IMG/VR virus record: IMGVR_UViG_3300029705_000009
Strand: one strand, 5' to 3'
Length of the DNA stretch: 64,000 nucleotides
Origin: a virus
Lineage: Duplodnaviria > Caudoviricetes
A program made the position numbers and the translations under genes. Every line of letters begins with the position of its first letter. The first letter of the stretch is position 1. The notes beneath the pieces are model-generated. The model saw nothing but the letters and a program-made list of their open reading frames with translations. It ran no database searches and had not been told where the DNA came from. Shown piece after piece: positions 13,655 through 25,065 of this stretch.

Positions 13655-14968
13655 TTAGTTTAAAGAATCTTGAATAAGCTCTTGTTCTTCTTCTATATCC
13701 GGTGCGTCAGATGTATCTTTTATAATTCCTTCTAATACTTTAAAAGTAAAAGATTTTCTCTTAAAAGCAGTAAACTTACTTCTATTATCAATTCTGGCAA
13801 CAACACCTTCTGCCACATGTCTTGAATCTATCTCGTCCGGAATGTCAAGCCATTTATTTACTCTTTCGTTGAGATCATCTACTGTTGTAAATAAGAATTT
13901 GTCTAGAACAGGAACGAATTTACATCCCATTCTTTCACACCACATCTTGGTTTCTTCTGTAGGCAATTCAATAACAACACCATCTTCATTGGTCATCGTC
14001 ATTCTATAAACGTACATGTCGCTTTCGCCAGGTTCGCAACCATATGTAAATACAGTTTCCTTGCCATATATTTTTTCAAACTCTTTATCTTTTACTAGCT
14101 TATTGCTACATCTTCCCATAATAGGAGTCGTTTCATTTACCCAGCCTACAATTTCATAAAAAACGGTCATTCCTTTTGGTAGTTTGTCAGCAAAGAAATC
14201 ATGATATTTCTTTCTGAATTCATCATTACCGTAATAACCACCATCAAATTTCTTAAGAACAGTTCTTCTAGTACCGGATACCAGTTTGTATTCTTTTTTC
14301 TTCTTATCCTTTAAATTAAAAATCTTTTTCAATATAGGATTTCTGTGTTTTGTTGTTACCTGGATTGCTGCTTGTGTTCTACCGCTAGTTCCGTGCAGCT
14401 TTCTAGTTAAATAAACAATATCTCCATCTTTAAAGGCATGCAAATTATAATCAAGCTGTGATGTATCAATGTGCTCATCAAAATATGGATAAGACACCTC
14501 TTCTTTTTCAAATTTCTTTTTATGTTTTCCTTGACTGCCATCATGGATTCTCTGAGAATATGTTCTAGCTGGTATATATTTCTTACAAATCTCGTGACCA
14601 CCTAAAACAGTAATCTGATCACCATCTTTTAATTTTGAAATATCTGTATATTTTTCTAATACTCTTACTGGCAAAACCAAACCTTCAGACTTTTCGCCAC
14701 GTAATCTTATTGCAGTGATGTTACGTTTAGACGGATCCATATACCCACCTATGTTATTACCATTCTCATCCTTTTTACGAACAAGATTGTTATCGTTTGC
14801 AAACTCTTCAGATAATTGACCATCTGAAGGAAAGAACACAACCTGTTGACCTTCTTGATAAGATAAATCTACTATTACATTCTGACCAAATACTTCTACA
14901 CACTGCAAACGATCTGCATTACTATGTTTCCTTAGATTGTGTAATGTTGTAATGTAACCACAATACAT
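13655..14968 (-). CDS. ATP-dependent RNA ligase (Rnl2/DRB0094-like) with N-terminal OB-like domain
   Basis: N-terminal HSNADRLQ..RLRGEKSEG; motif I RKLHGTS; YEIVG; EGVV; FKRK. Confidence 0.82.
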   Translation of the reverse strand: MYCGYITTLHNLRKHSNADRLQCVEVFGQNVIVDLSYQEGQQVVFFPSDGQLSEEFANDNNLVRKKDENGNNIGGYMDPSKRNITAIRLRGEKSEGLVLPVRVLEKYTDISKLKDGDQITVLGGHEICKKYIPARTYSQRIHDGSQGKHKKKFEKEEVSYPYFDEHIDTSQLDYNLHAFKDGDIVYLTRKLHGTSGRTQAAIQVTTKHRNPILKKIFNLKDKKKKEYKLVSGTRRTVLKKFDGGYYGNDEFRKKYHDFFADKLPKGMTVFYEIVGWVNETTPIMGRCSNKLVKDKEFEKIYGKETVFTYGCEPGESDMYVYRMTMTNEDGVVIELPTEETKMWCERMGCKFVPVLDKFLFTTVDDLNERVNKWLDIPDEIDSRHVAEGVVARIDNRSKFTAFKRKSFTFKVLEGIIKDTSDAPDIEEEQELIQDSLN

Positions 14969-15657: not shown

Positions 15658-17271
15658 CTACTGTTCAATAATCTTGAAAGATACGTCAGTACGTCTATTC
15701 ATTGCTCTATGTTCTTCTGTGTCATTATCAACCACAGGATTGCTAGATCCTCTACCAACAGTAACGATTCTGTCAGGAGAAATACCATTCATTACAAAGT
15801 ACTGCTTAACAGCCTCTGCTCTCTGTCCGGAAAGCTTAATGTTATATTCGTCTGTAGGATCAGATACTGGATTAGGATCAGTGTTACCAGCAATTTCAAT
15901 AATAGATCCATCCAGAACCTTAGCCACTTCAATAAATTCGTCAAGTTCCTGAGATGCAGAAGCAGAATCAGAGAACTTAGCAGTATTTACTACAAATGTT
16001 ACAGAAGCAGACTTAGTAAGAAGGGATGTAGCATCTAATACTTCCTGTTTGTTATCTTCTGTTACAACAACCTTATTTGTATCAACGGATGTTTCAGTAG
16101 AACTAAAATCACTTGCAATATTATTAATATAAGTATCATCAAAAAGTGTATCTACAACACTAGCATTTACAGTTTCACCAAGAGATGTCCAGATTTCACA
16201 CATATCAGTAAAAATGGTTTTTGCAGTACCATTTAATAAATTGCTGTTATCTTTCCAGGTAGTCAACTTAGCGGAAGCACAGTTTGCAACAATGTCTTCA
16301 TTGGATGCAGTTGAAAACATAGGCATTACACTTCTAATGGCATCAAAGTCGGTGTCATACAGTTCAGAAGCCATTAACGCACCTTTAATAAACTTTTCTA
16401 CTACCTCAGCATTATTCTTTACAAACTCTTCGTTGAATAAGATACCATCCATTACAAGGCTAGAAGAACTTGCAGTACTAAAGAAAATGTGTGCATCGGT
16501 CATGTTCTGAGCCTGGGTTAAATAAGGTTCCCATGTAGCTGCTACATCAACCTCTCCTGCGAAGAAAGCCTTTGCTGCTTCATCAGGAGTCGCAAAGAAG
16601 ATCAGATTGTTCATAATTGCATCTTTCTCTTCCTGAGTTAAATCAGACTGCTGTACAAACCACGCTACAAGAGTGTGTGCTTCGGAGAACTGAGGAACAC
16701 CGATTTTTGCTCCAACTAAATCAGTTACAGTCTGGATGCTGGAGTGTGCAATAATTCCATCGCCACCGTTAGAATAATTAGTGATAAAAGGCATAACAAT
16801 GTCTACACCAGCCTCAGAAAACTTCTGAGATAAGAAAGCAGTTCTGTTAATTGTATAACCGGCAGCATCAAGATCTCCCTTAATAATAGCATTAGAACTC
16901 TGAGTTGCATCGTTGATTACACTAATATTCACATTGATACCAAGTTCGTCATAAATTCCATATTTCTCAGCATCAAGAATTGACTTCCAACCAATCCATT
17001 CATCAAGGGACAAATTAATGGTATTAGCTTCTGTTTTCTCAATGTTCATTACATTACCATTCTCATCATACTCCGGCAAATTGTCTGTATTTTGAGTAGT
17101 GTTATTAATAACCTCTTCTGTCTTGTTATTAACAACACCTGTGTTCTTCTTGTCATCAGAAGTCTTGATAATGCCAGTCTTTACACCGGCAAACACTCCT
17201 CCTCCAACAAGAGCTAAGATTACAACTAAAATTAATACTTTTGCTGCTTTTGTTAATCTAAATCTTCTCAT
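15658..17271 (-). CDS. Membrane-anchored NMT1/SsuA-like substrate-binding protein with C-terminal OmpA-like domain
   Basis: N-terminal TM; W.GW, SNGGDGI, GEVDVAATWEP; C-terminal GNTD..N..LS..RAEAV..G.G.SNP..NRR. Confidence 0.88.
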   Translation of the reverse strand: MRRFRLTKAAKVLILVVILALVGGGVFAGVKTGIIKTSDDKKNTGVVNNKTEEVINNTTQNTDNLPEYDENGNVMNIEKTEANTINLSLDEWIGWKSILDAEKYGIYDELGINVNISVINDATQSSNAIIKGDLDAAGYTINRTAFLSQKFSEAGVDIVMPFITNYSNGGDGIIAHSSIQTVTDLVGAKIGVPQFSEAHTLVAWFVQQSDLTQEEKDAIMNNLIFFATPDEAAKAFFAGEVDVAATWEPYLTQAQNMTDAHIFFSTASSSSLVMDGILFNEEFVKNNAEVVEKFIKGALMASELYDTDFDAIRSVMPMFSTASNEDIVANCASAKLTTWKDNSNLLNGTAKTIFTDMCEIWTSLGETVNASVVDTLFDDTYINNIASDFSSTETSVDTNKVVVTEDNKQEVLDATSLLTKSASVTFVVNTAKFSDSASASQELDEFIEVAKVLDGSIIEIAGNTDPNPVSDPTDEYNIKLSGQRAEAVKQYFVMNGISPDRIVTVGRGSSNPVVDNDTEEHRAMNRRTDVSFKIIEQ

Positions 17272-20737: not shown

Positions 20738-21229
20738 ACATTTGACTACTCATGCAGTACTTCATGCCCGCACCCACCTATGTCTCCCACACACAACCTC
20801 GTCAAATGTTGTTTTTAAATGGTTTAATCGACCTCACCACAAACGGAGTTGTCCATCAACTCACATGGAACAGTTTTACCAGTTTTCTTTTTGGACGACT
20901 ATTACGTATGTCCTCCAACTGCCAAGTCGATTTTTTACATGCATGACCTACTAATCTGCAGCTAAGTAGGATTATGTTCAACACTTTATCGAAAGCCTGA
21001 ATCATTTTACTGAAAACGCTATTTTGACTCTGTTGCAAAATAGTAACGGTCAAGTGATAAGTCACTACCTCTGTTCTTTTCTCCACCAATTTACAGTAAG
21101 GAGTGTGTTTCCTTTTGAAACTTCTCAAAAGTCACTTCAGTGTCCGTTGCCGACCCTATTTTCTTTTTGAATTAAGGATAAGTCACTTCAGTAGAAAACC
21201 TTAGCTATCAGTTTTCTTATGCTGTTGCC
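20738..21229 (-). ncRNA. Candidate structured ncRNA(s) between tRNA-like genes
   Basis: Successive closed stems (ACATTTGAC/GTCAAATGT, AATCGAC/GTCGATT, CCTACT/AGTAGG, CTATTTTG/CAAAATAG), repeated CTGAAGTGACTT; no convincing ORF. Confidence 0.45.
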
Positions 21230-21232
21230 CAA

Positions 21233-21828: not shown

Positions 21829-21917
21829 TGGTGGAATTTTGAAATGCTGTCGAATCGAACGACAAGAAAAACTTTTGCAGAGTTTTGAATTTAAAATTGC
21901 TGTAAGAGATCTCCACC
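21829..21917 (-). ncRNA. Array unit: tRNA-Cys(GCA)-like RNA with D-arm replaced by CAGCAA motif
   Basis: GGTGGAG/TTCCACC, TTACAGCAATTTT, AAAACT-CTGCAAA-AGTTTT, TGTCG-TTCGATT-CGACA. Confidence 0.7.
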
Positions 21918-21962
21918 CTTATCTCCTATAATTCTGTCACCAGACGCCTTTCGTATTTATTC

Positions 21963-22022
21963 TAGGCACGTTTACATTATTGATTAACAGTCAATTGTAT
22001 TTATATTTGCTGCATGTGCCTA
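21963..22022 (-). ncRNA. Array unit: mini RNA with Asn(GTT) anticodon stem-loop
   Basis: TAGGCAC/GTGCCTA stem, ATGCAGCAAAT, ATTGA-CTGTTAA-TCAAT. Confidence 0.75.
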
Positions 22023-22028
22023 TATTGC

Positions 22029-22205
22029 TAGATACCATATATCAGAGTTTACTTAAATTTGCACCAAGCTACAGATTCGAACTGCCATCTTCTCCTTTAA
22101 AGGGAGACGTAATATTCTTGCGAATGCGCTTTGCCCTATTATACTATCTCGGTGGTTTCCTCATCATACTTTTTTACGCATTATTTATATCGCTGTTGGT
22201 ATCTA
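22029..22205 (-). ncRNA. Array unit enclosing a tRNA-like element with TTA (ochre) anticodon (22061-22154)
   Basis: TAGATACCA/TGGTATCTA stem, ACAGCGAT; inner CACCGAG/CTTGGTG, TCTCC-CTTTAAA-GGAGA, T-loop TTCGAAT, expanded D region. Confidence 0.65.
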
Positions 22206-22220
22206 TTTAATTTTATTTAG

Positions 22221-23771
22221 TTATACAATGTCTTTAACGGCATCCTCTACTACTTGGTATCTTTCGGAGTTAAGCTGTTCAACCAAACATTCAAACGGAT
22301 CGAGCTTTCCACTAAGTACCATCTTGCAGATAGCAGGGCTAAAACCAGACACTAACGCTACTGGGAAGTTTTCGTGCCGATTTACAGGCAAGGTACCGGT
22401 TCTACTACAAATGTTCCAGAATACAACACGAGGCATTTTGTAACCAGCATTAGTCCATTTCTGTTCAATTTCTCTGAATAAAGTATTTTTTACTCCCCAT
22501 CCACCACTATTATCTATTGCACATGAATCGAATTCCATATCTGATAAAATAAGAACATTTGTAGGAATATCTTCTTGGCTCATTTTCTTGCTAACGGCAG
22601 TCTTGAGTAATAAATCAAACACAGCTTCAATATTGGTATTGGCCACCTCATTATATCTAAGTGCAATCGCAATCTTTTCTCTTAAAGTCTTAGCTTGAGA
22701 AAAGTCTACTAATTGAGGTCTATGGCTAAAAGTAATGTAATTGTTCTTAAACTCTCCATTACTATGCTCTGCAAAATAAATTGCTAAAGCATTTGCAACA
22801 TCAAGACATGTCACATTGGTTCCACCAACTGTACTTTTCATACTTCCGGAGCCATCAGCAACACAAATCGTGTTTCCCTGACCCTTTACAAAGTCAGGAA
22901 GTGCTTTCCATAACTGCTCCAATGTAGTATCTACACCAGATTTTAAATATTGACCATAACCAGAACCAGTCATATAACTATGAACAATATCATGAGGGAA
23001 GTTAACAGAACTGTTAATCTTTACACCTTCATCTCCACGCTCTAAAGCTGCCAGATAAGCTCTACGTCTCTCTTCATCATTTCTTAAGAAAGCTCCATTG
23101 TAAATCAGATTCGCTCTTGAAGGTACTGTGTTATAGTCGATTTCACTCCACTCTTTCGCAGACATTTTAACTTCTACAACATTAAGATACTTACGAAGAG
23201 AAGAAAGTGTCTTTCGATAATTTCTCTCTGTCATATTAAGACCGGAATAAAGAATCCTTGCAAGTCTTCTGTTTCCCTTTGAGGAGCAATTAGTACTAGG
23301 CATCCATTTTGCCAAGAGTGAAATAGGCTTGTTTTCCATCTGATTAGCGCAGTCTTCCTCAAGCTGCATTGCAACCCAGGCTATAACATCTTCACGAAGT
23401 TTTGTATCAAGCAGACACCACATATCATCTACACGGCCATATTCCGGTGCTAAGCTAAACACTGCCTTTGCAATCTCAGGTTGTTCTGTTGCCAACCATT
23501 TCAGACACACTCTAAACAATCTTCTTTCGCCAATGCCTTCTCTTGCATCTCTGCAATAGAATAACCACTTTACGGCAAGCAGCTTGTCTTCATAGAAAGC
23601 CTTAGCAAAAGCATCTTCAATTGCTTTATCACTCTTATTTCTGAAAGATGTTACACCGAAATTAATATCTAACAGCTTTCTTCCGGATGTGCCAAATCCT
23701 AACGCTCCATTTTCTGTAATGGAAAAGCTATTCTGATCTAGTGTTGTTTTTAAATTATTCATAAAACTCAT
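22221..23771 (-). CDS. DUF2828-family TROVE/Ro60-like protein with C-terminal VWA (MIDAS) domain
   Basis: TENGA, RDAREGIGER, LAKWMPS, DGSGSM, ILSDMEFD, VFWNI, LVSGFS; start at MSFMNN after AAGGAGA. Confidence 0.88.
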   Translation of the reverse strand: MSFMNNLKTTLDQNSFSITENGALGFGTSGRKLLDINFGVTSFRNKSDKAIEDAFAKAFYEDKLLAVKWLFYCRDAREGIGERRLFRVCLKWLATEQPEIAKAVFSLAPEYGRVDDMWCLLDTKLREDVIAWVAMQLEEDCANQMENKPISLLAKWMPSTNCSSKGNRRLARILYSGLNMTERNYRKTLSSLRKYLNVVEVKMSAKEWSEIDYNTVPSRANLIYNGAFLRNDEERRRAYLAALERGDEGVKINSSVNFPHDIVHSYMTGSGYGQYLKSGVDTTLEQLWKALPDFVKGQGNTICVADGSGSMKSTVGGTNVTCLDVANALAIYFAEHSNGEFKNNYITFSHRPQLVDFSQAKTLREKIAIALRYNEVANTNIEAVFDLLLKTAVSKKMSQEDIPTNVLILSDMEFDSCAIDNSGGWGVKNTLFREIEQKWTNAGYKMPRVVFWNICSRTGTLPVNRHENFPVALVSGFSPAICKMVLSGKLDPFECLVEQLNSERYQVVEDAVKDIV

Positions 23772-23816
23772 TTCTTTTTCTCCTTTTTGAATAGTTTTAT
23801 TTGCTTTAACTATTCC

Positions 23817-23868
23817 AAGATACATTTGATAGATTTGCAGTCTAATTTTTATTTGCTGTTAGTATCTT
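23817..23868 (-). ncRNA. Array unit: mini RNA with Cys(GCA) anticodon stem-loop
   Basis: AAGATAC/GTATCTT stem, TAACAGCAAAT, TAGA-CTGCAAA-TCTA. Confidence 0.75.
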
Positions 23869-23880
23869 AGAAATTAATAA

Positions 23881-24251: not shown

Positions 24252-24264
24252 ATATTTAGTTTTC

Positions 24265-24327
24265 TAGTCGCCATAAAAACTTATCAGATCCCTAATCAGA
24301 TGTTTTTAATGTTGCTGTAAGCGACTA
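24265..24327 (-). ncRNA. Array unit: mini RNA with Pro(AGG) anticodon loop
   Basis: TAGTCGC/GCGACTA stem, TTACAGCAAC, ATCTGA-TTAGGGA-TCTGAT. Confidence 0.72.
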
Positions 24328-24330
24328 ACT

Positions 24331-24387
24331 AGATGCTTTTGAATTACAATTTAAAAGATTGTTCCAATAAAATTGCTGTATGCATCT
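24331..24387 (-). ncRNA. Array unit: mini RNA with Lys(TTT) anticodon stem-loop
   Basis: AGATGC/GCATCT stem, ATACAGCAATTTT, ACAAT-CTTTTAA-ATTGT. Confidence 0.75.
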
Positions 24388-24389
24388 GA

Positions 24390-24502
24390 AGACGTGAGAC
24401 GGAGTTGAACCATCATCTGTGCCTTGGCTTCCTTTAATTTGCTGTTTGAGTTAAACTAAACTCTTTATTCGGAGCACCGTGCTACCATTGCACCATCACG
24501 CC
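24390..24502 (-). tRNA. tRNA-Gly(GCC)-like with ~42-nt insertion (24431-24472) in anticodon arm
   Basis: GGCGTGA/TCACGTC U73, D-arm GTGC/GCAC, GTGCT[insert]AAGCCAA-GGCAC; insert is hairpin + AAACAGCAAAT. Confidence 0.72.
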
Positions 24503-24507
24503 ATATC

Positions 24508-24582
24508 AAAGCGGTTTGAGGTATTGTCGTTTTCCTCTCATTAATGTTTTCTGGAGACAAAATATCTTGCTGTAACCGCTTT
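24508..24582 (-). ncRNA. Array unit (stem + ACAGCAA; possible Trp-like CTCCAGA loop, weak)
   Basis: AAAGCGGTT/AACCGCTTT stem, ACAGCAAG. Confidence 0.6.
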
Positions 24583-24589
24583 TAATTAC

Positions 24590-24655
24590 TAGACAGATTA
24601 AAATATATAATATGTATTCTGGCATATATTCTTTAAATGTTGCTACTTCTGTCTA
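24590..24655 (-). ncRNA. Array unit (divergent motif TAGCAA, internal hairpin)
   Basis: TAGACAGA/TCTGTCTA stem, AGTAGCAAC, ATATG-CCAGAATA-CATAT. Confidence 0.55.
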
Positions 24656-24657
24656 AA

Positions 24658-24729
24658 CAGGGCTAGCTGGATTCGAACCAGCGACTGCAGCAGTCAAAGT
24701 GCTGTGCCTTACCGCTTGGCGATAGCCCT
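24658..24729 (-). tRNA. tRNA-Gln(TTG)
   Basis: Canonical cloverleaf, CAGCA-CTTTGAC-TGCTG. Confidence 0.95.
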
Positions 24730-24927
24730 ATAAATTCTGGTGGTTCTTTTACATCTACCACCAAAGATGTATCATAAGAAAGGAGGTACGTTTGCAAGAA
24801 GCAAACCAAACTTTAGGAATATGTCGTAATAATAGGCTTTTATTGCACACTTTCGTTTTTGTGTGTAATTTTATTTACCTACGATTGTTTTTTTGAGGAC
24901 TTAATGTCCTCAATCTCAACTGTACTT

Positions 24928-24956
24928 AGTCTACCATACTATGCAATAATTGTCAA
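24928..24956 (-). promoter_or_regulatory. Sigma-A-type promoter facing the RNA array
   Basis: TTGACA-17 nt-TAGACT with TG extension. Confidence 0.7.
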
Positions 24957-25020
24957 TACACTTTTTGATATTTAATTTTATTTACCTATTACCAAAAAAA
25001 AATAATTTCCTGATGAAACT

Positions 25021-25049
25021 ATACTACCACGGCTAACACATATTGTCAA
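25021..25049 (-). promoter_or_regulatory. Second tandem sigma-A-type promoter
   Basis: TTGACA-17 nt-TAGTAT with TG extension. Confidence 0.7.
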
Positions 25050-25065
25050 CACCTTTTGCATTATT

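What the first reader, a model, noticed from the sequence alone, without database searches (positions are those of the whole stretch)
24265..24387. Minimal 50-65 nt anticodon-stem-loop RNAs with no acceptor, D or T arm
Units at 24265-24327 (Pro AGG), 24331-24387 (Lys TTT), 23817-23868 (Cys GCA) and 21963-22022 (Asn GTT) contain only a closing helix, the CAGCAA motif and a hairpin. The hairpin loop obeys anticodon-loop rules (Y32, U33, purine 37): TTAGGGA, CTTTTAA, CTGCAAA, CTGTTAA. They cannot be charged, so any function must come from presenting the loop. The same loops (TTAGGGA, CTGTTAA, CTGCAAA) recur in the full-length tRNA-like units, so each target is shown on two scaffolds. tRNA finders would miss these units.
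Basis: partly seen in the sequence, partly recalled or inferred. Interest (0 to 1): 0.8.

Follow-up and report, generated by a model that had tools for sequence, protein, structure and literature searches.

The report
Phage small RNAs displaying anticodon hairpins
A large gut-type phage encodes 54-65-base RNAs that carry only the anticodon hairpin of a tRNA on a conserved "handle"; they sit beside the gene for a Ro60-like ring protein and are probably its partner RNAs, possibly baits for bacterial enzymes that cut tRNAs.

Summary
The four units are real.

Each unit has four parts:
- a 6-7 bp terminal stem (6 bp in the Lys unit);
- a single-stranded NNA-CAGCAA-WWTWA motif;
- a short second helix;
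- a 4-5 bp stem closed by a 7-nt loop. One stem has a U-U mismatch.

Both stems covary. Across about 100 related loci, units lie only on the strand of a DUF2828/DUF7788 gene, mostly within 500 nt upstream of it. The protein folds like Ro60.

Anticodon-like loops are enriched about six-fold over shuffles. Lys-UUU makes up about half of them. Base 37 follows tRNA rules: G after G36, otherwise A.

Only about a third of handle RNAs carry such a hairpin. The others carry different hairpins, T-arms or whole tRNA-like domains.

Best reading: Y-RNA-like partners of a Ro60-like protein that present anticodon arms. A polynucleotide kinase and an RNA ligase are neighbours, which points to conflict over tRNA cleavage. 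Binding, expression and target are untested.

I found no Rfam family or paper describing this family. This scan has noted the same family several times on other genomes.

The parts
24329..24389 (-). Mini unit with tRNA-Lys(UUU)-type arm: terminal stem AGATGC/GCATCT, CAGCAA at 24378-24373, second helix TTGG(A)/(T)TCAA, arm ACAAT-CTTTTAA-ATTGT (loop 24357-24351)
   Evidence: Sequence; R2 hit E 9.1e-14; alignments A2/A3
24264..24328 (-). Mini unit with TTAGGGA loop (anticodon AGG, G37): stem TAGTCGC/GCGACTA, TTA-CAGCAA, extended arm with one U-U mismatch
   Evidence: Sequence; fold; R2 hit E 3e-9
23816..23869 (-). Mini unit with Cys(GCA)-type loop CTGCAAA on a 4-bp stem; terminal stem AAGATAC/GTATCTT; CAGCAA at 23858-23853. 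It lies about 45 nt before the start codon of the Ro60-like gene
   Evidence: Sequence; R2 hit E 4.2e-11
21962..22023 (-). Mini unit with Asn(GUU)-type arm ATTGA-CTGTTAA-TCAAT; terminal stem TAGGCAC/GTGCCTA; motif variant G-CAGCAA; second helix TACA/TGTA
   Evidence: Sequence; R2 best hit of the window, E 6.4e-14
24589..24656 (-). Further handle unit: stem TAGACAG/CTGTCTA, motif variant TAGCAA, cargo hairpin with a long loop that is not anticodon-like
   Evidence: R1 E 2.6e-5; R2 E 1.3e-5; row
24507..24583 (-). Further handle unit: stem AAAGCGG/CCGCTTT, TTA-CAGCAA, cargo not anticodon-like
   Evidence: E 3.3e-4
21829..21917 (-). Hybrid unit: terminal stem GGTGGA/TCCACC, TTACAGCAA where the D arm would be, Cys-type arm AAAACT-CTGCAAA-AGTTTT, then a T-arm-like hairpin GTCG-TTCGATT-CGAC
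   Evidence: Sequence; fold; partial R2 hit 21860-21912, E 1.2e-3
22028..22205 (-). Handle (TAGATACC/GGTATCTA plus AA-CAGCGA) enclosing a whole tRNA-like domain with a TCTCC-CTTTAAA-GGAGA arm (anticodon UUA)
   Evidence: Sequence; Rfam tRNA hit 22062-22153, 35.6 bits
23882..24252 (-). Three tRNA-like genes (24250-24130 Tyr-GTA loop, 24121-24004 Asn-GTT loop, 23997-23882 TTAGGGA loop). Each has a ~44-nt insert in the 5' strand of the anticodon stem. The insert is the same handle in circularly permuted form: hairpin GTCTT-loop-AAGAC followed by NN-ACTGCAATTT
   Evidence: Sequence; Rfam tRNA hits of 118 and 116 nt with a full-length model match
24390..24502 (-). Fourth tRNA-like gene with a handle insert (hairpin GAGTT/AACTC plus AAACAGCAAAT)
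   Evidence: Rfam tRNA 44.5 bits over 113 nt; sequence
22221..23771 (-). 516-aa DUF2828 + DUF7788 protein with a MIDAS motif (DGSGSM): Ro60-like TROVE ring plus vWA domain; proposed protein partner
   Evidence: Pfam E 1e-43 and 3e-32; PHROG 850 'RNA-binding protein' E 1.5e-130; AF2 model pLDDT 74.8; the 13 best Foldseek PDB hits are all Ro60/TROVE structures, E 6e-8 to 1.5e-4, TM 0.33-0.52
13655..14968 (-). RNA ligase (PHA02142 OB fold plus RNA_ligase domain), about 7 kb downstream of the island; flanks the island in several relatives
   Evidence: Pfam; PHROG 968 'RNA ligase' E 2.7e-64; neighbours
24928..25049 (-). Two promoter-like sites (TTGACA-17-TAGTAT and TTGACA-17-TAGACT, both with an upstream TG) before the island. 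The only terminator-like site on this strand downstream of them within the island is at 21359-21342, so the island may be co-transcribed with the protein gene (inference)
   Evidence: The number of sites is not above the shuffle expectation; only the position is suggestive
24657..24730 (-). Canonical tRNA-Gln (TTG) that opens the island; canonical tRNA-Met lies at 21771-21699
   Evidence: ARAGORN and Rfam

Best explanation
The 54-65-nt units are genuine small structured RNAs. They are the minimal members of a phage family built as 'handle plus cargo'.

The handle is a terminal helix (5' W-A-G-R-Y..., 3' ...R-Y-C-T-W, then G) followed directly by single-stranded NNA-CAGCAA-WWTWA. I infer that it is the docking site for the Ro60-like ring protein (DUF2828/DUF7788) encoded in the middle of the island. 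This mirrors how Y RNAs dock on Ro60 through a terminal stem and a conserved 5'-strand motif.

In these four units the cargo is a faithful copy of a tRNA anticodon arm: Lys-UUU, Asn-GUU, Cys-GCA and an AGG loop. It sits on a short extra helix, so the particle would hold out a bare anticodon loop.

The most likely use is to engage proteins that recognise anticodon loops. Host anticodon nucleases are the first candidates, with the RNA acting as bait or competitive substrate. Alternatively the RNA could tether the ring to the phage's tRNA-repair enzymes.

Shown here: the RNA architecture, covariation, the anticodon-type loops, the linkage to the gene and the Ro60 fold. Inferred: transcription and processing into discrete RNAs, binding to the protein, and the target.
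For: 1. Independent model R2 recovers the four units as the top four hits of the window.

2. Covariation in 53 units from other phages: terminal stem 100% paired with 7 of 7 pairs covarying; anticodon-type stem 96.6% paired with 5 of 5 covarying. No shuffle out of 500 reaches the observed covariation score, and pairing collapses to 26-46% when the partner columns are slid (training set).

3. Strand and place:
- 86 of 86 R1 hits and 188 of 188 are on the strand of the DUF2828 gene.
- In 67 loci with full flanks, 73 units lie in the 500 nt before the gene and 13 just after it. Opposite-strand pseudo-units number 4 or fewer per 500-nt bin.
- In a complete 170,934-bp phage, 5 of 6 hits lie within about 2.5 kb of the gene.
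- Cultured Fusobacterium phage Fnu1 has one unit between a TTGACA/TATAAT promoter and the gene.

4. CAGCAA is kept beside proteins only 36-50% identical to this one.

5. The protein folds like Ro60: the top 13 PDB hits are all Ro60/TROVE. Phage Ro60 is known to bind Y-like RNAs encoded just upstream of its gene (PMC12135203; PMC4201824).

6. Anticodon character: 47 of 149 clusters against 7.3 +/- 2.6 in shuffles; the best-hairpin loop length has its mode at 7 (54 of 149); Lys CTTTTAA occurs in 19 clusters. Base 37 follows tRNA rules.

7. The same handle occurs circularly permuted inside four tRNA-like genes and around a whole tRNA-like domain in this window. That fits a modular docking element.

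8. Context: a polynucleotide kinase-like gene (PHROG 505, E 1.5e-18), an RNA ligase and a Thg1-like gene flank the island in relatives. This is the type of toolkit T4 uses to repair tRNA-Lys cut by PrrC (established knowledge).
Against: - There is no binding, expression or end-mapping data.
- The handle motif is not the GNCGAA/CGAA motif of known Ro60 partners. The protein belongs to a different Pfam family, and a sequence profile finds no solved structure.
- The fold model is moderate: pLDDT 74.8, TM about 0.45-0.5.
- Only about 27-32% of unit clusters carry an anticodon-type loop, so loop display cannot be the function of the whole family.
- 11 of 67 loci show no unit with my strict scanner. 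A few hits lie far from the gene.
- For the bait idea: the RNAs would have to compete with very abundant tRNAs. Nucleases such as PrrC depend on anticodon modifications that a bare hairpin may not receive (established knowledge).
- The loop list from the model hits is biased by the model's training loops. Only the scanner figures are unbiased.
Confidence: 0.55

Rival explanations
1. The units are protein-independent baits or sponges. They act as free anticodon-arm mimics that soak up host anticodon nucleases or anticodon-loop modification enzymes. The handle serves only for processing or stability, or binds some other factor, and the link to the DUF2828 gene is shared regulation within an RNA-repair island.
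For: Exact anticodon arms with Lys-UUU dominant. Polynucleotide kinase and RNA ligase neighbours. A few units lie far from the gene.
Against: The very tight and strand-specific placement next to the gene persists across proteins down to 36% identity. Two thirds of the units share the handle but have no anticodon arm. A conserved single-stranded motif next to a stem with conserved AG/CT ends looks like a protein site.
Confidence: 0.15
2. The units are cis-acting leader elements of the DUF2828 mRNA, for example autoregulatory operator sites or processing and stability signals, rather than trans-acting small RNAs.
For: Most units lie in the 500 nt before the start codon. In Fnu1 the single unit sits between the promoter and the gene. 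Window unit 23869-23816 ends about 45 nt before the start codon.
Against: There are up to 8-12 units per phage. They occur on both sides of the gene, inside tRNA-like genes and around a tRNA-like domain. Cargo that copies specific anticodon arms and covaries has no obvious role in cis regulation.
Confidence: 0.1
3. The units are pieces of a tRNA supply route. They would be split or permuted tRNA parts, or intron-like modules, that the phage RNA ligase joins into working tRNAs.
For: An RNA ligase and a kinase are in the genome. The same loops occur in the insert-bearing tRNA-like genes.
Against: The mini units hold a complete, closed anticodon arm and nothing that could pair with a separate acceptor/T half. 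None of 149 has CCA nearby. The handle is conserved as a structure in its own right. One insert-bearing tRNA would not regain a normal loop on excision (sequence).
Confidence: 0.05
4. The units are decayed tRNA genes or a selfish repeat with no RNA function.
For: They lie in a tRNA array, and the arms are clearly tRNA-derived.
Against: There is compensatory change in every pair of both stems across dozens of phages. The motif is invariant. All hits are on one strand and cluster at one gene.
Confidence: 0.03

Closest known systems
Ro60 (Rsr/TROVE) with Y RNAs: bacterial and phage YrlA/YrlB (Rfam RF02553; Chen et al. 2014, PMC4201824) and Thermus phage phiLo Ro60 with Yrl1/Yrl2 (PMC12135203)
   Same: The protein is a ring plus a vWA domain. 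Small RNAs are encoded next to the gene on the same strand. The RNA is built as a 5'/3' terminal stem, an asymmetric internal loop with a conserved 5'-strand motif, and a variable module. The module is tRNA-derived. There is an association with RNA-repair genes.
   Different: The protein family is DUF2828/DUF7788, not Pfam TROVE, and the likeness is at fold level only. The motif is CAGCAA, not GNCGAA/CGAA. YrlA mimics the acceptor/T/D part and lacks an anticodon arm, whereas these units are the reverse, with only the anticodon arm. There are many copies per genome with different anticodons. RF02553 does not match the mini units. Its weak hits (24-25 bits, cut-off 69) fall on the T and D arms of neighbouring tRNA-like genes.
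Class I RNAs of dictyostelid social amoebae (Aspegren 2004; Kjellin 2021, PMC7919456; search pattern GTTGRCCTTACAGCAA...GTCAACTG in PMC5054030)
   Same: Length is about 60 nt. A 6-bp covarying stem joins the 5' and 3' ends. An unpaired conserved motif ending in TTACAGCAA follows the 5' strand directly; window units 24328-24264 and 24583-24507 read TTA-CAGCAA. The interior is variable, the ends are conserved (AAG... / ...CUGU against WAG... / ...CTWG), and the genes occur in clusters.
   Different: They are eukaryotic, have their own DUSE promoter, and their known direct binder is an RRM protein (Rnp1A). No anticodon-type cargo has been reported, and they were reported as unique to Dictyostelia. 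I compared only the published pattern and description, not the sequences. I did not check whether dictyostelids have a DUF2828 protein.
Phage answers to anticodon nucleases: T4 Pnkp plus Rnl1 repair of PrrC-cut tRNA-Lys, and phage tRNA variants that escape cleavage such as T5 tRNA-Lys against PARIS (commentary PMC11455837; otherwise my own knowledge)
   Same: The conflict centres on the tRNA-Lys(UUU) anticodon loop. The phage carries tRNA arrays, a polynucleotide kinase-like gene (in relatives) and an RNA ligase.
   Different: Those systems replace or mend whole tRNAs. Here the element is a non-chargeable anticodon arm on a protein-docking handle. I found no published RNA bait for an anticodon nuclease.
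Armless mitochondrial tRNAs of nematodes and mites (my own knowledge)
   Same: They are tRNA-derived molecules of 45-60 nt lacking D and/or T arms.
   Different: Those keep an acceptor stem with CCA addition and are aminoacylated. These units have a handle in place of an acceptor stem, no CCA, and a foreign conserved motif.

Membership tests
tRNA (Rfam RF00005) | Cloverleaf with acceptor stem, D arm, anticodon arm and T arm; detected by tRNA finders | tested here: not met
   ARAGORN and Rfam at gathering and at E<=5 give no hit at the four units. Only the anticodon arm is present.
tRNA (Rfam RF00005) | Anticodon arm: 5-bp stem, 7-nt loop with Y32, U33, R37 | tested here: met
   The loops are CTTTTAA, CTGTTAA, CTGCAAA and TTAGGGA. 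Stems are 5 bp in two units, 4 bp in one, and 5 bp with a U-U mismatch in one. Stem pairs covary in relatives.
tRNA (Rfam RF00005) | 3' CCA end or discriminator context allowing aminoacylation | tested here: not met
   None of 149 unit clusters has CCA within 7 nt downstream. The mature ends were not mapped.
Y RNA / YrlA (Rfam RF02553) | Terminal stem formed by the 5' and 3' ends, with a conserved motif in or next to its 5' strand | tested here: met
   Terminal stem is 100% paired with 7 of 7 pairs covarying. The motif is invariant at C-A-G-C-A-A.
Y RNA / YrlA (Rfam RF02553) | Ro60-binding motif GNCGAA(N0-1)G / CGAA | tested here: not met
   The motif here is CAGCAA.
Y RNA / YrlA (Rfam RF02553) | Match to the YrlA covariance model (T arm, acceptor-like stem-loop, D arm) | tested here: not met
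   There is no hit on the mini units. Hits of 24-25 bits (cut-off 69) fall on neighbouring tRNA-like genes only.
Y RNA / YrlA (Rfam RF02553) | Encoded within a few kb of a Ro60 gene, on the same strand | tested here: met
   The gene is Ro60-like by fold, not by Pfam TROVE.
Y RNA / YrlA (Rfam RF02553) | Physical binding to the Ro60 protein | not testable with these tools
   No tool for RNA-protein complexes was available and no sequencing runs were obtainable.
Ro60/TROVE protein (for the partner gene) | HEAT-repeat ring followed by a vWA domain with a MIDAS motif | tested here: met
   The AF2 model and Foldseek give 13 top hits that are all Ro60/TROVE over the full length. D306, S308 and S310 are invariant.
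Ro60/TROVE protein (for the partner gene) | Sequence membership in Pfam TROVE or detectable sequence likeness to solved Ro60 | tested here: not met
   Pfam gives DUF2828 plus DUF7788 only. A profile search against PDB sequences finds nothing at E<=1.
Dictyostelid Class I RNA | About 60 nt; 6-bp terminal stem; 11-nt motif CCTTACAGCAA directly after the 5' strand; variable interior; conserved ends | tested here: inconclusive
   The grammar and the 9-mer TTACAGCAA match the published pattern and description. No amoeba sequences were compared, and the taxon, promoter and known binder differ.

The most novel reading that the evidence does not exclude
A new kind of viral ribonucleoprotein: a Ro60-like ring loaded with interchangeable RNAs that hold out bare anticodon arms, above all tRNA-Lys(UUU). 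It would neutralise or sense host anticodon nucleases, working with the phage's kinase/ligase tRNA-repair set. The same handle grammar in the unexplained Class I RNAs of social amoebae would then mark one RNP family shared by phages and eukaryotes.
Probability: 0.25. Interest if true: 0.85.

Novelty: new variant of a known kind. Interest (0 to 1): 0.72.

Why it matters
Phages and bacteria fight over tRNA. Hosts cut anticodon loops, and phages reply with spare tRNAs and repair enzymes. An RNA that shows only the anticodon arm, mounted on a Ro60-like ring, would be a third kind of reply: a bait or an adaptor.

It would also give Y-RNA-like particles a concrete, testable target, since the function of the tRNA-like part of bacterial Y RNAs is still open.

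The family is large. More than 540 IMG/VR stretches encode the protein, with hundreds of units in about 100 loci. It has a simple searchable grammar, it is absent from Rfam, and it exists in a cultured phage-host pair (Fusobacterium phage Fnu1). Experiments are therefore within reach.

The likeness to dictyostelid Class I RNAs, if real, would give a 20-year-old orphan RNA class a candidate protein partner.

Tried and rejected
Steps that led nowhere:
- No whole genome is held for the window.
- A sequence profile of the protein against PDB sequences gave no hit. Only the fold search worked.
- The protein atlas returned only DUF2828 virus clusters and no help on eukaryotic relatives.
- The paper on Class I RNA-binding proteins (Avesson 2011) is not held.
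- Plain minimum-free-energy folding often misses the weak A/U-rich anticodon-type stems. I therefore used pattern counts with shuffles and covariance models.
- My first scanner has a sizeable background: 167 pseudo-units on the opposite strand in 960 kb. Requiring the AG/CT stem ends cut this to 27 against 263.

Readings considered and rejected:
- YrlA membership. The weak RF02553 hits are explained by the T and D arms of adjacent tRNA-like genes.
- Terminators or promoters. The units do not fit either pattern, and site counts are not above shuffles.
- Introns or tRNA halves, for the mini units.
- Decayed tRNA genes, which the covariation contradicts.

Seven of the 47 'anticodon-like' clusters are really T-loops (TTCAAAT and similar) from hybrid units and should not be counted as anticodon loops.

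Full report
**What is in the window**

All genes of the window run on the minus strand. They include a DnaE-type polymerase, an NAD ligase, an integrase-like gene and an RNA ligase. The protein of interest has close relatives on contigs of 130-290 kb. This is therefore a large phage, probably from gut samples.

Between about 24730 and 20650 lies an RNA island. ARAGORN sees four ordinary tRNAs there. Rfam adds four tRNA matches of 92-118 nt that carry an insert.

In the middle of the island is a 516-aa gene, 23771-22221. It carries Pfam DUF2828 plus DUF7788 and belongs to PHROG 850 'RNA-binding protein'.

**Checking the observation**

Each has:
- a 6-7 bp helix joining the two ends (6 bp in the Lys unit);
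- two or three bases and then CAGCAA;
- an A/U-rich linker;
- a hairpin whose 7-nt loop is CTTTTAA, TTAGGGA, CTGCAAA or CTGTTAA.

The hairpin stems are 5 bp in the Lys and Asn units, 4 bp in the Cys unit, and 5 bp with a U-U mismatch in the AGG unit.

A short extra helix (TTGG/CCAA, TACA/TGTA and similar) sits between the linker and the hairpin. The hairpin arm is therefore about 9-10 bp long with a bulge.

To avoid circularity I built model R2 from 53 units of other phages only and searched the whole window on both strands with filters off. The four units are the four best hits, with E 6.4e-14, 9.1e-14, 4.2e-11 and 3e-9. Next come two further units with other cargo (24656-24589 and 24583-24507) and the hybrid at 21912-21860.

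**The family**

The heptamer ACWGCAA occurs ten times on the minus strand between 21897 and 24573.

I fetched 9 loci by the protein from IMG/VR, 11 from assemblies, 80 more with a protein alignment, and the cultured Fusobacterium phage Fnu1.

Placement results:
- Model R1, built from 16 units, gave 86 hits at E<=1 in the window and the first 17 loci searched. It gave 188 hits at E<=0.01 in the 80 new loci. Every hit is on the strand of the DUF2828 gene.
- In 67 loci with full flanks, 73 units lie in the 500 nt before the gene, 40 in the kilobase before that, and 13 just after the gene. Opposite-strand pseudo-units are scattered at no more than 4 per bin.
- In a complete 170,934-bp phage, five of six hits lie within about 2.5 kb of the gene.
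- In Fnu1 a single unit lies between a TTGACA/TATAAT promoter and the gene.

The consensus handle is W-A-G-R-Y-N-S, two or three bases ending in A, an invariant C-A-G-C-A-A, then W-W-T-W-A. At the 3' end it is S-N-R-Y-C-T-W followed by G.

**Structure support**

In the 53 independent units the terminal stem is 100% paired, and all seven pairs show changes on both sides. The hairpin stem is 96.6% paired, and all five pairs covary.

No shuffle out of 500 reaches the observed covariation score or percentage paired. Sliding the partner columns drops pairing to 26-46%. The training alignment behaves the same way.

These alignments were fitted to the model, so they lean towards it. The size of the effect and the slid controls still leave little doubt.

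**Are the loops anticodon loops?**

I counted with a model-free scanner: terminal stem, motif and AG/CT ends, which gave 263 units on the gene strand against 27 on the other strand.
- 47 of 149 sequence clusters contain a stem of at least 4 bp closing a 7-nt loop of the form Y-U-NNN-R-N.
- Shuffled interiors give 7.3 +/- 2.6, with a maximum of 15 in 300. An earlier, smaller count gave 27 of 68 against 3.1 +/- 1.6.
- Seven of the 47 are T-loops of hybrid units, leaving about 40.
- The best hairpin has a 7-nt loop in 54 of 149 clusters.

Lys CTTTTAA accounts for 19 clusters. The remainder are Cys, Ser (two kinds), Phe, Asn, Ile, Tyr, Glu, Met, Pro, Leu and Thr types.

Base 37 follows the tRNA rule. 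It is G after G36 (TTAGGGA, TTTGGGA, TTGAGGA) and A otherwise. Most Lys units keep the G30-C40 and A31-U39 pairs. Canonical tRNA-Lys genes in related phages have the same loop.

However, about two thirds of the units carry something else: long-loop hairpins, a T arm (hybrids), or a whole tRNA-like domain.

**One handle, several topologies**

The window shows four arrangements:
- handle plus anticodon arm (the four units);
- handle plus anticodon arm plus T arm (21917-21829);
- handle around a full tRNA-like domain with a UUA anticodon (22205-22028);
- tRNA-like genes in which the handle is inserted in the 5' strand of the anticodon stem.

In the last case the helix is closed by a loop (GTCTT-loop-AAGAC) and is followed by NN-ACTGCAATTT. 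This is a circular permutation of the mini-unit handle. A module that keeps its helix-plus-motif geometry while its connections change is what one expects of a docking site.

**The protein**

An AlphaFold2 model (pLDDT 74.8) searched against the PDB gives 13 top hits that are all Ro60/TROVE structures over the full length. They include Thermus phage phiLo Ro60, Deinococcus Rsr, and Xenopus and human Ro60 (E 6e-8 to 1.5e-4, TM 0.33-0.52). After them come only vWA domains. The MIDAS residues are invariant. Sequence methods do not see the relation.

Published work gives the model:
- Ro60 binds Y RNAs through a terminal stem and a conserved 5'-strand motif.
- Bacterial and phage Y RNAs are encoded next to the gene on the same strand, and their variable module mimics tRNA (PMC4201824).
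- Phage phiLo Ro60 binds two such RNAs encoded just upstream of its gene (PMC12135203).

**Mechanism**

I therefore read the mini units as minimal Y-like partner RNAs. The handle docks on the ring and the anticodon arm is held out.

Several things point to the conflict over anticodon-loop cleavage:
- The cargo is an exact anticodon arm.
- Lys-UUU dominates. It is the classical target of PrrC-type nucleases and of PARIS (my own knowledge; PMC11455837).
- Relatives place a polynucleotide kinase-like gene directly before the island (PHROG 505, E 1.5e-18).
- An RNA ligase lies after the island, and once a Thg1-like gene. The window has the ligase at 14968-13655.

I cannot decide between a bait, a competitive inhibitor, a sensor or an adaptor for repair enzymes. 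Binding, transcription and processing are all inferred.

Two promoter-like sites lie before the island. Between them and the end of the island the only terminator-like site on this strand is at 21359-21342, well downstream of the protein gene. This suggests co-transcription with the protein gene, but the site counts are not above chance.

**Comparison and novelty**

Rfam has no family for the units. The word DUF2828 appears only in five unrelated plant and tardigrade papers. Searches on phage Ro60 and on anticodon-nuclease decoys found nothing like this.

The closest known system is Ro60 with YrlA-type Y RNAs. The differences are the protein family, the motif, the many copies per genome, and the cargo. 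YrlA mimics the acceptor/T/D part of tRNA, whereas these units mimic only the anticodon arm.

Dictyostelid Class I RNAs are about 60 nt, with a 6-bp covarying terminal stem followed directly by an unpaired motif. Their published search pattern is GTTGRCCTTACAGCAA...GTCAACTG, which is the same grammar and the same 9-mer as in window units 24328-24264 and 24583-24507. I did not compare amoeba sequences or check for a DUF2828 gene there.

This scan has already noted the same family on several other genomes and on this window. Those notes agree with what I found. I formed the Ro60 reading before opening them (records it).

**Verdict**

The thing is a new variant of a known kind, a Y-RNA-like partner of a Ro60-like protein, with an unusual and testable cargo.

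Noticed in passing
window 22028-22205 (-): A handle (TAGATACC/GGTATCTA plus AA-CAGCGA) encloses a whole tRNA-like domain. Its clean anticodon arm reads UUA, which would pair with the ochre stop codon. ORFs of the window look normal under code 11.
   Followed up: partly
window 20738-21230 (-): About 490 nt without an ORF lies between tRNA-like genes. The word CTGAAGTGACTT occurs twice, a partial copy GTAGTGACTT a third time, and there are several closed stems. None was hit by the handle models.
   Followed up: no
L003:5511-5804, L007:5511-5804, L008:2538-2831: ARAGORN calls a permuted tmRNA (tag ANKIVAFSRQTALV*) about 200 nt before the DUF2828 gene in three distant relatives. Two handle units lie between it and the gene.
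   Followed up: no
L003, L007, L008, L009: Related phages carry canonical tRNAs with A34 anticodons (Thr AGT, Leu AAG, Arg ACG). The odd AGG loop (TTAGGGA) of window unit 24328-24264 and tRNA-like 23997-23882 therefore fits a habit of the clade.
   Followed up: no
G001 (record behind L009) 133860-133923 (+); Fnu1 NC_055035 126247-126321 (+): Single model hits (E 3.8e-5 and 1.9e-3) lie far from the DUF2828 gene and on the other strand of the record. They could be stray family members or false positives.
   Followed up: no
L031, L040, L043, L046: Orthologous units differ only in the loop (CTTTTAC against CTTTGAC), so the displayed 'anticodon' can change by point mutation. A few units have lost U33 (CATTTAA, CAGTTAA, CCGTTAA).
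   Followed up: no
window 24264-24328 compared with L020:4561-4624 and L011:4554-4640: The terminal stem TAGTCGC/GCGACTA is kept at the same place in close relatives, but the cargo differs: a TTAGGGA arm here and other hairpins there. This suggests cargo turnover on a stable handle.
   Followed up: partly
window 24860-25050 (-): There are three similar A/T-rich segments before the island. Two of them carry TTGACA-17-TAnnnT with an upstream TG.
   Followed up: no
window 15658-17271 (-): A phage gene fuses an NMT1/SsuA-like substrate-binding domain to an OmpA-like peptidoglycan-binding domain.
   Followed up: no
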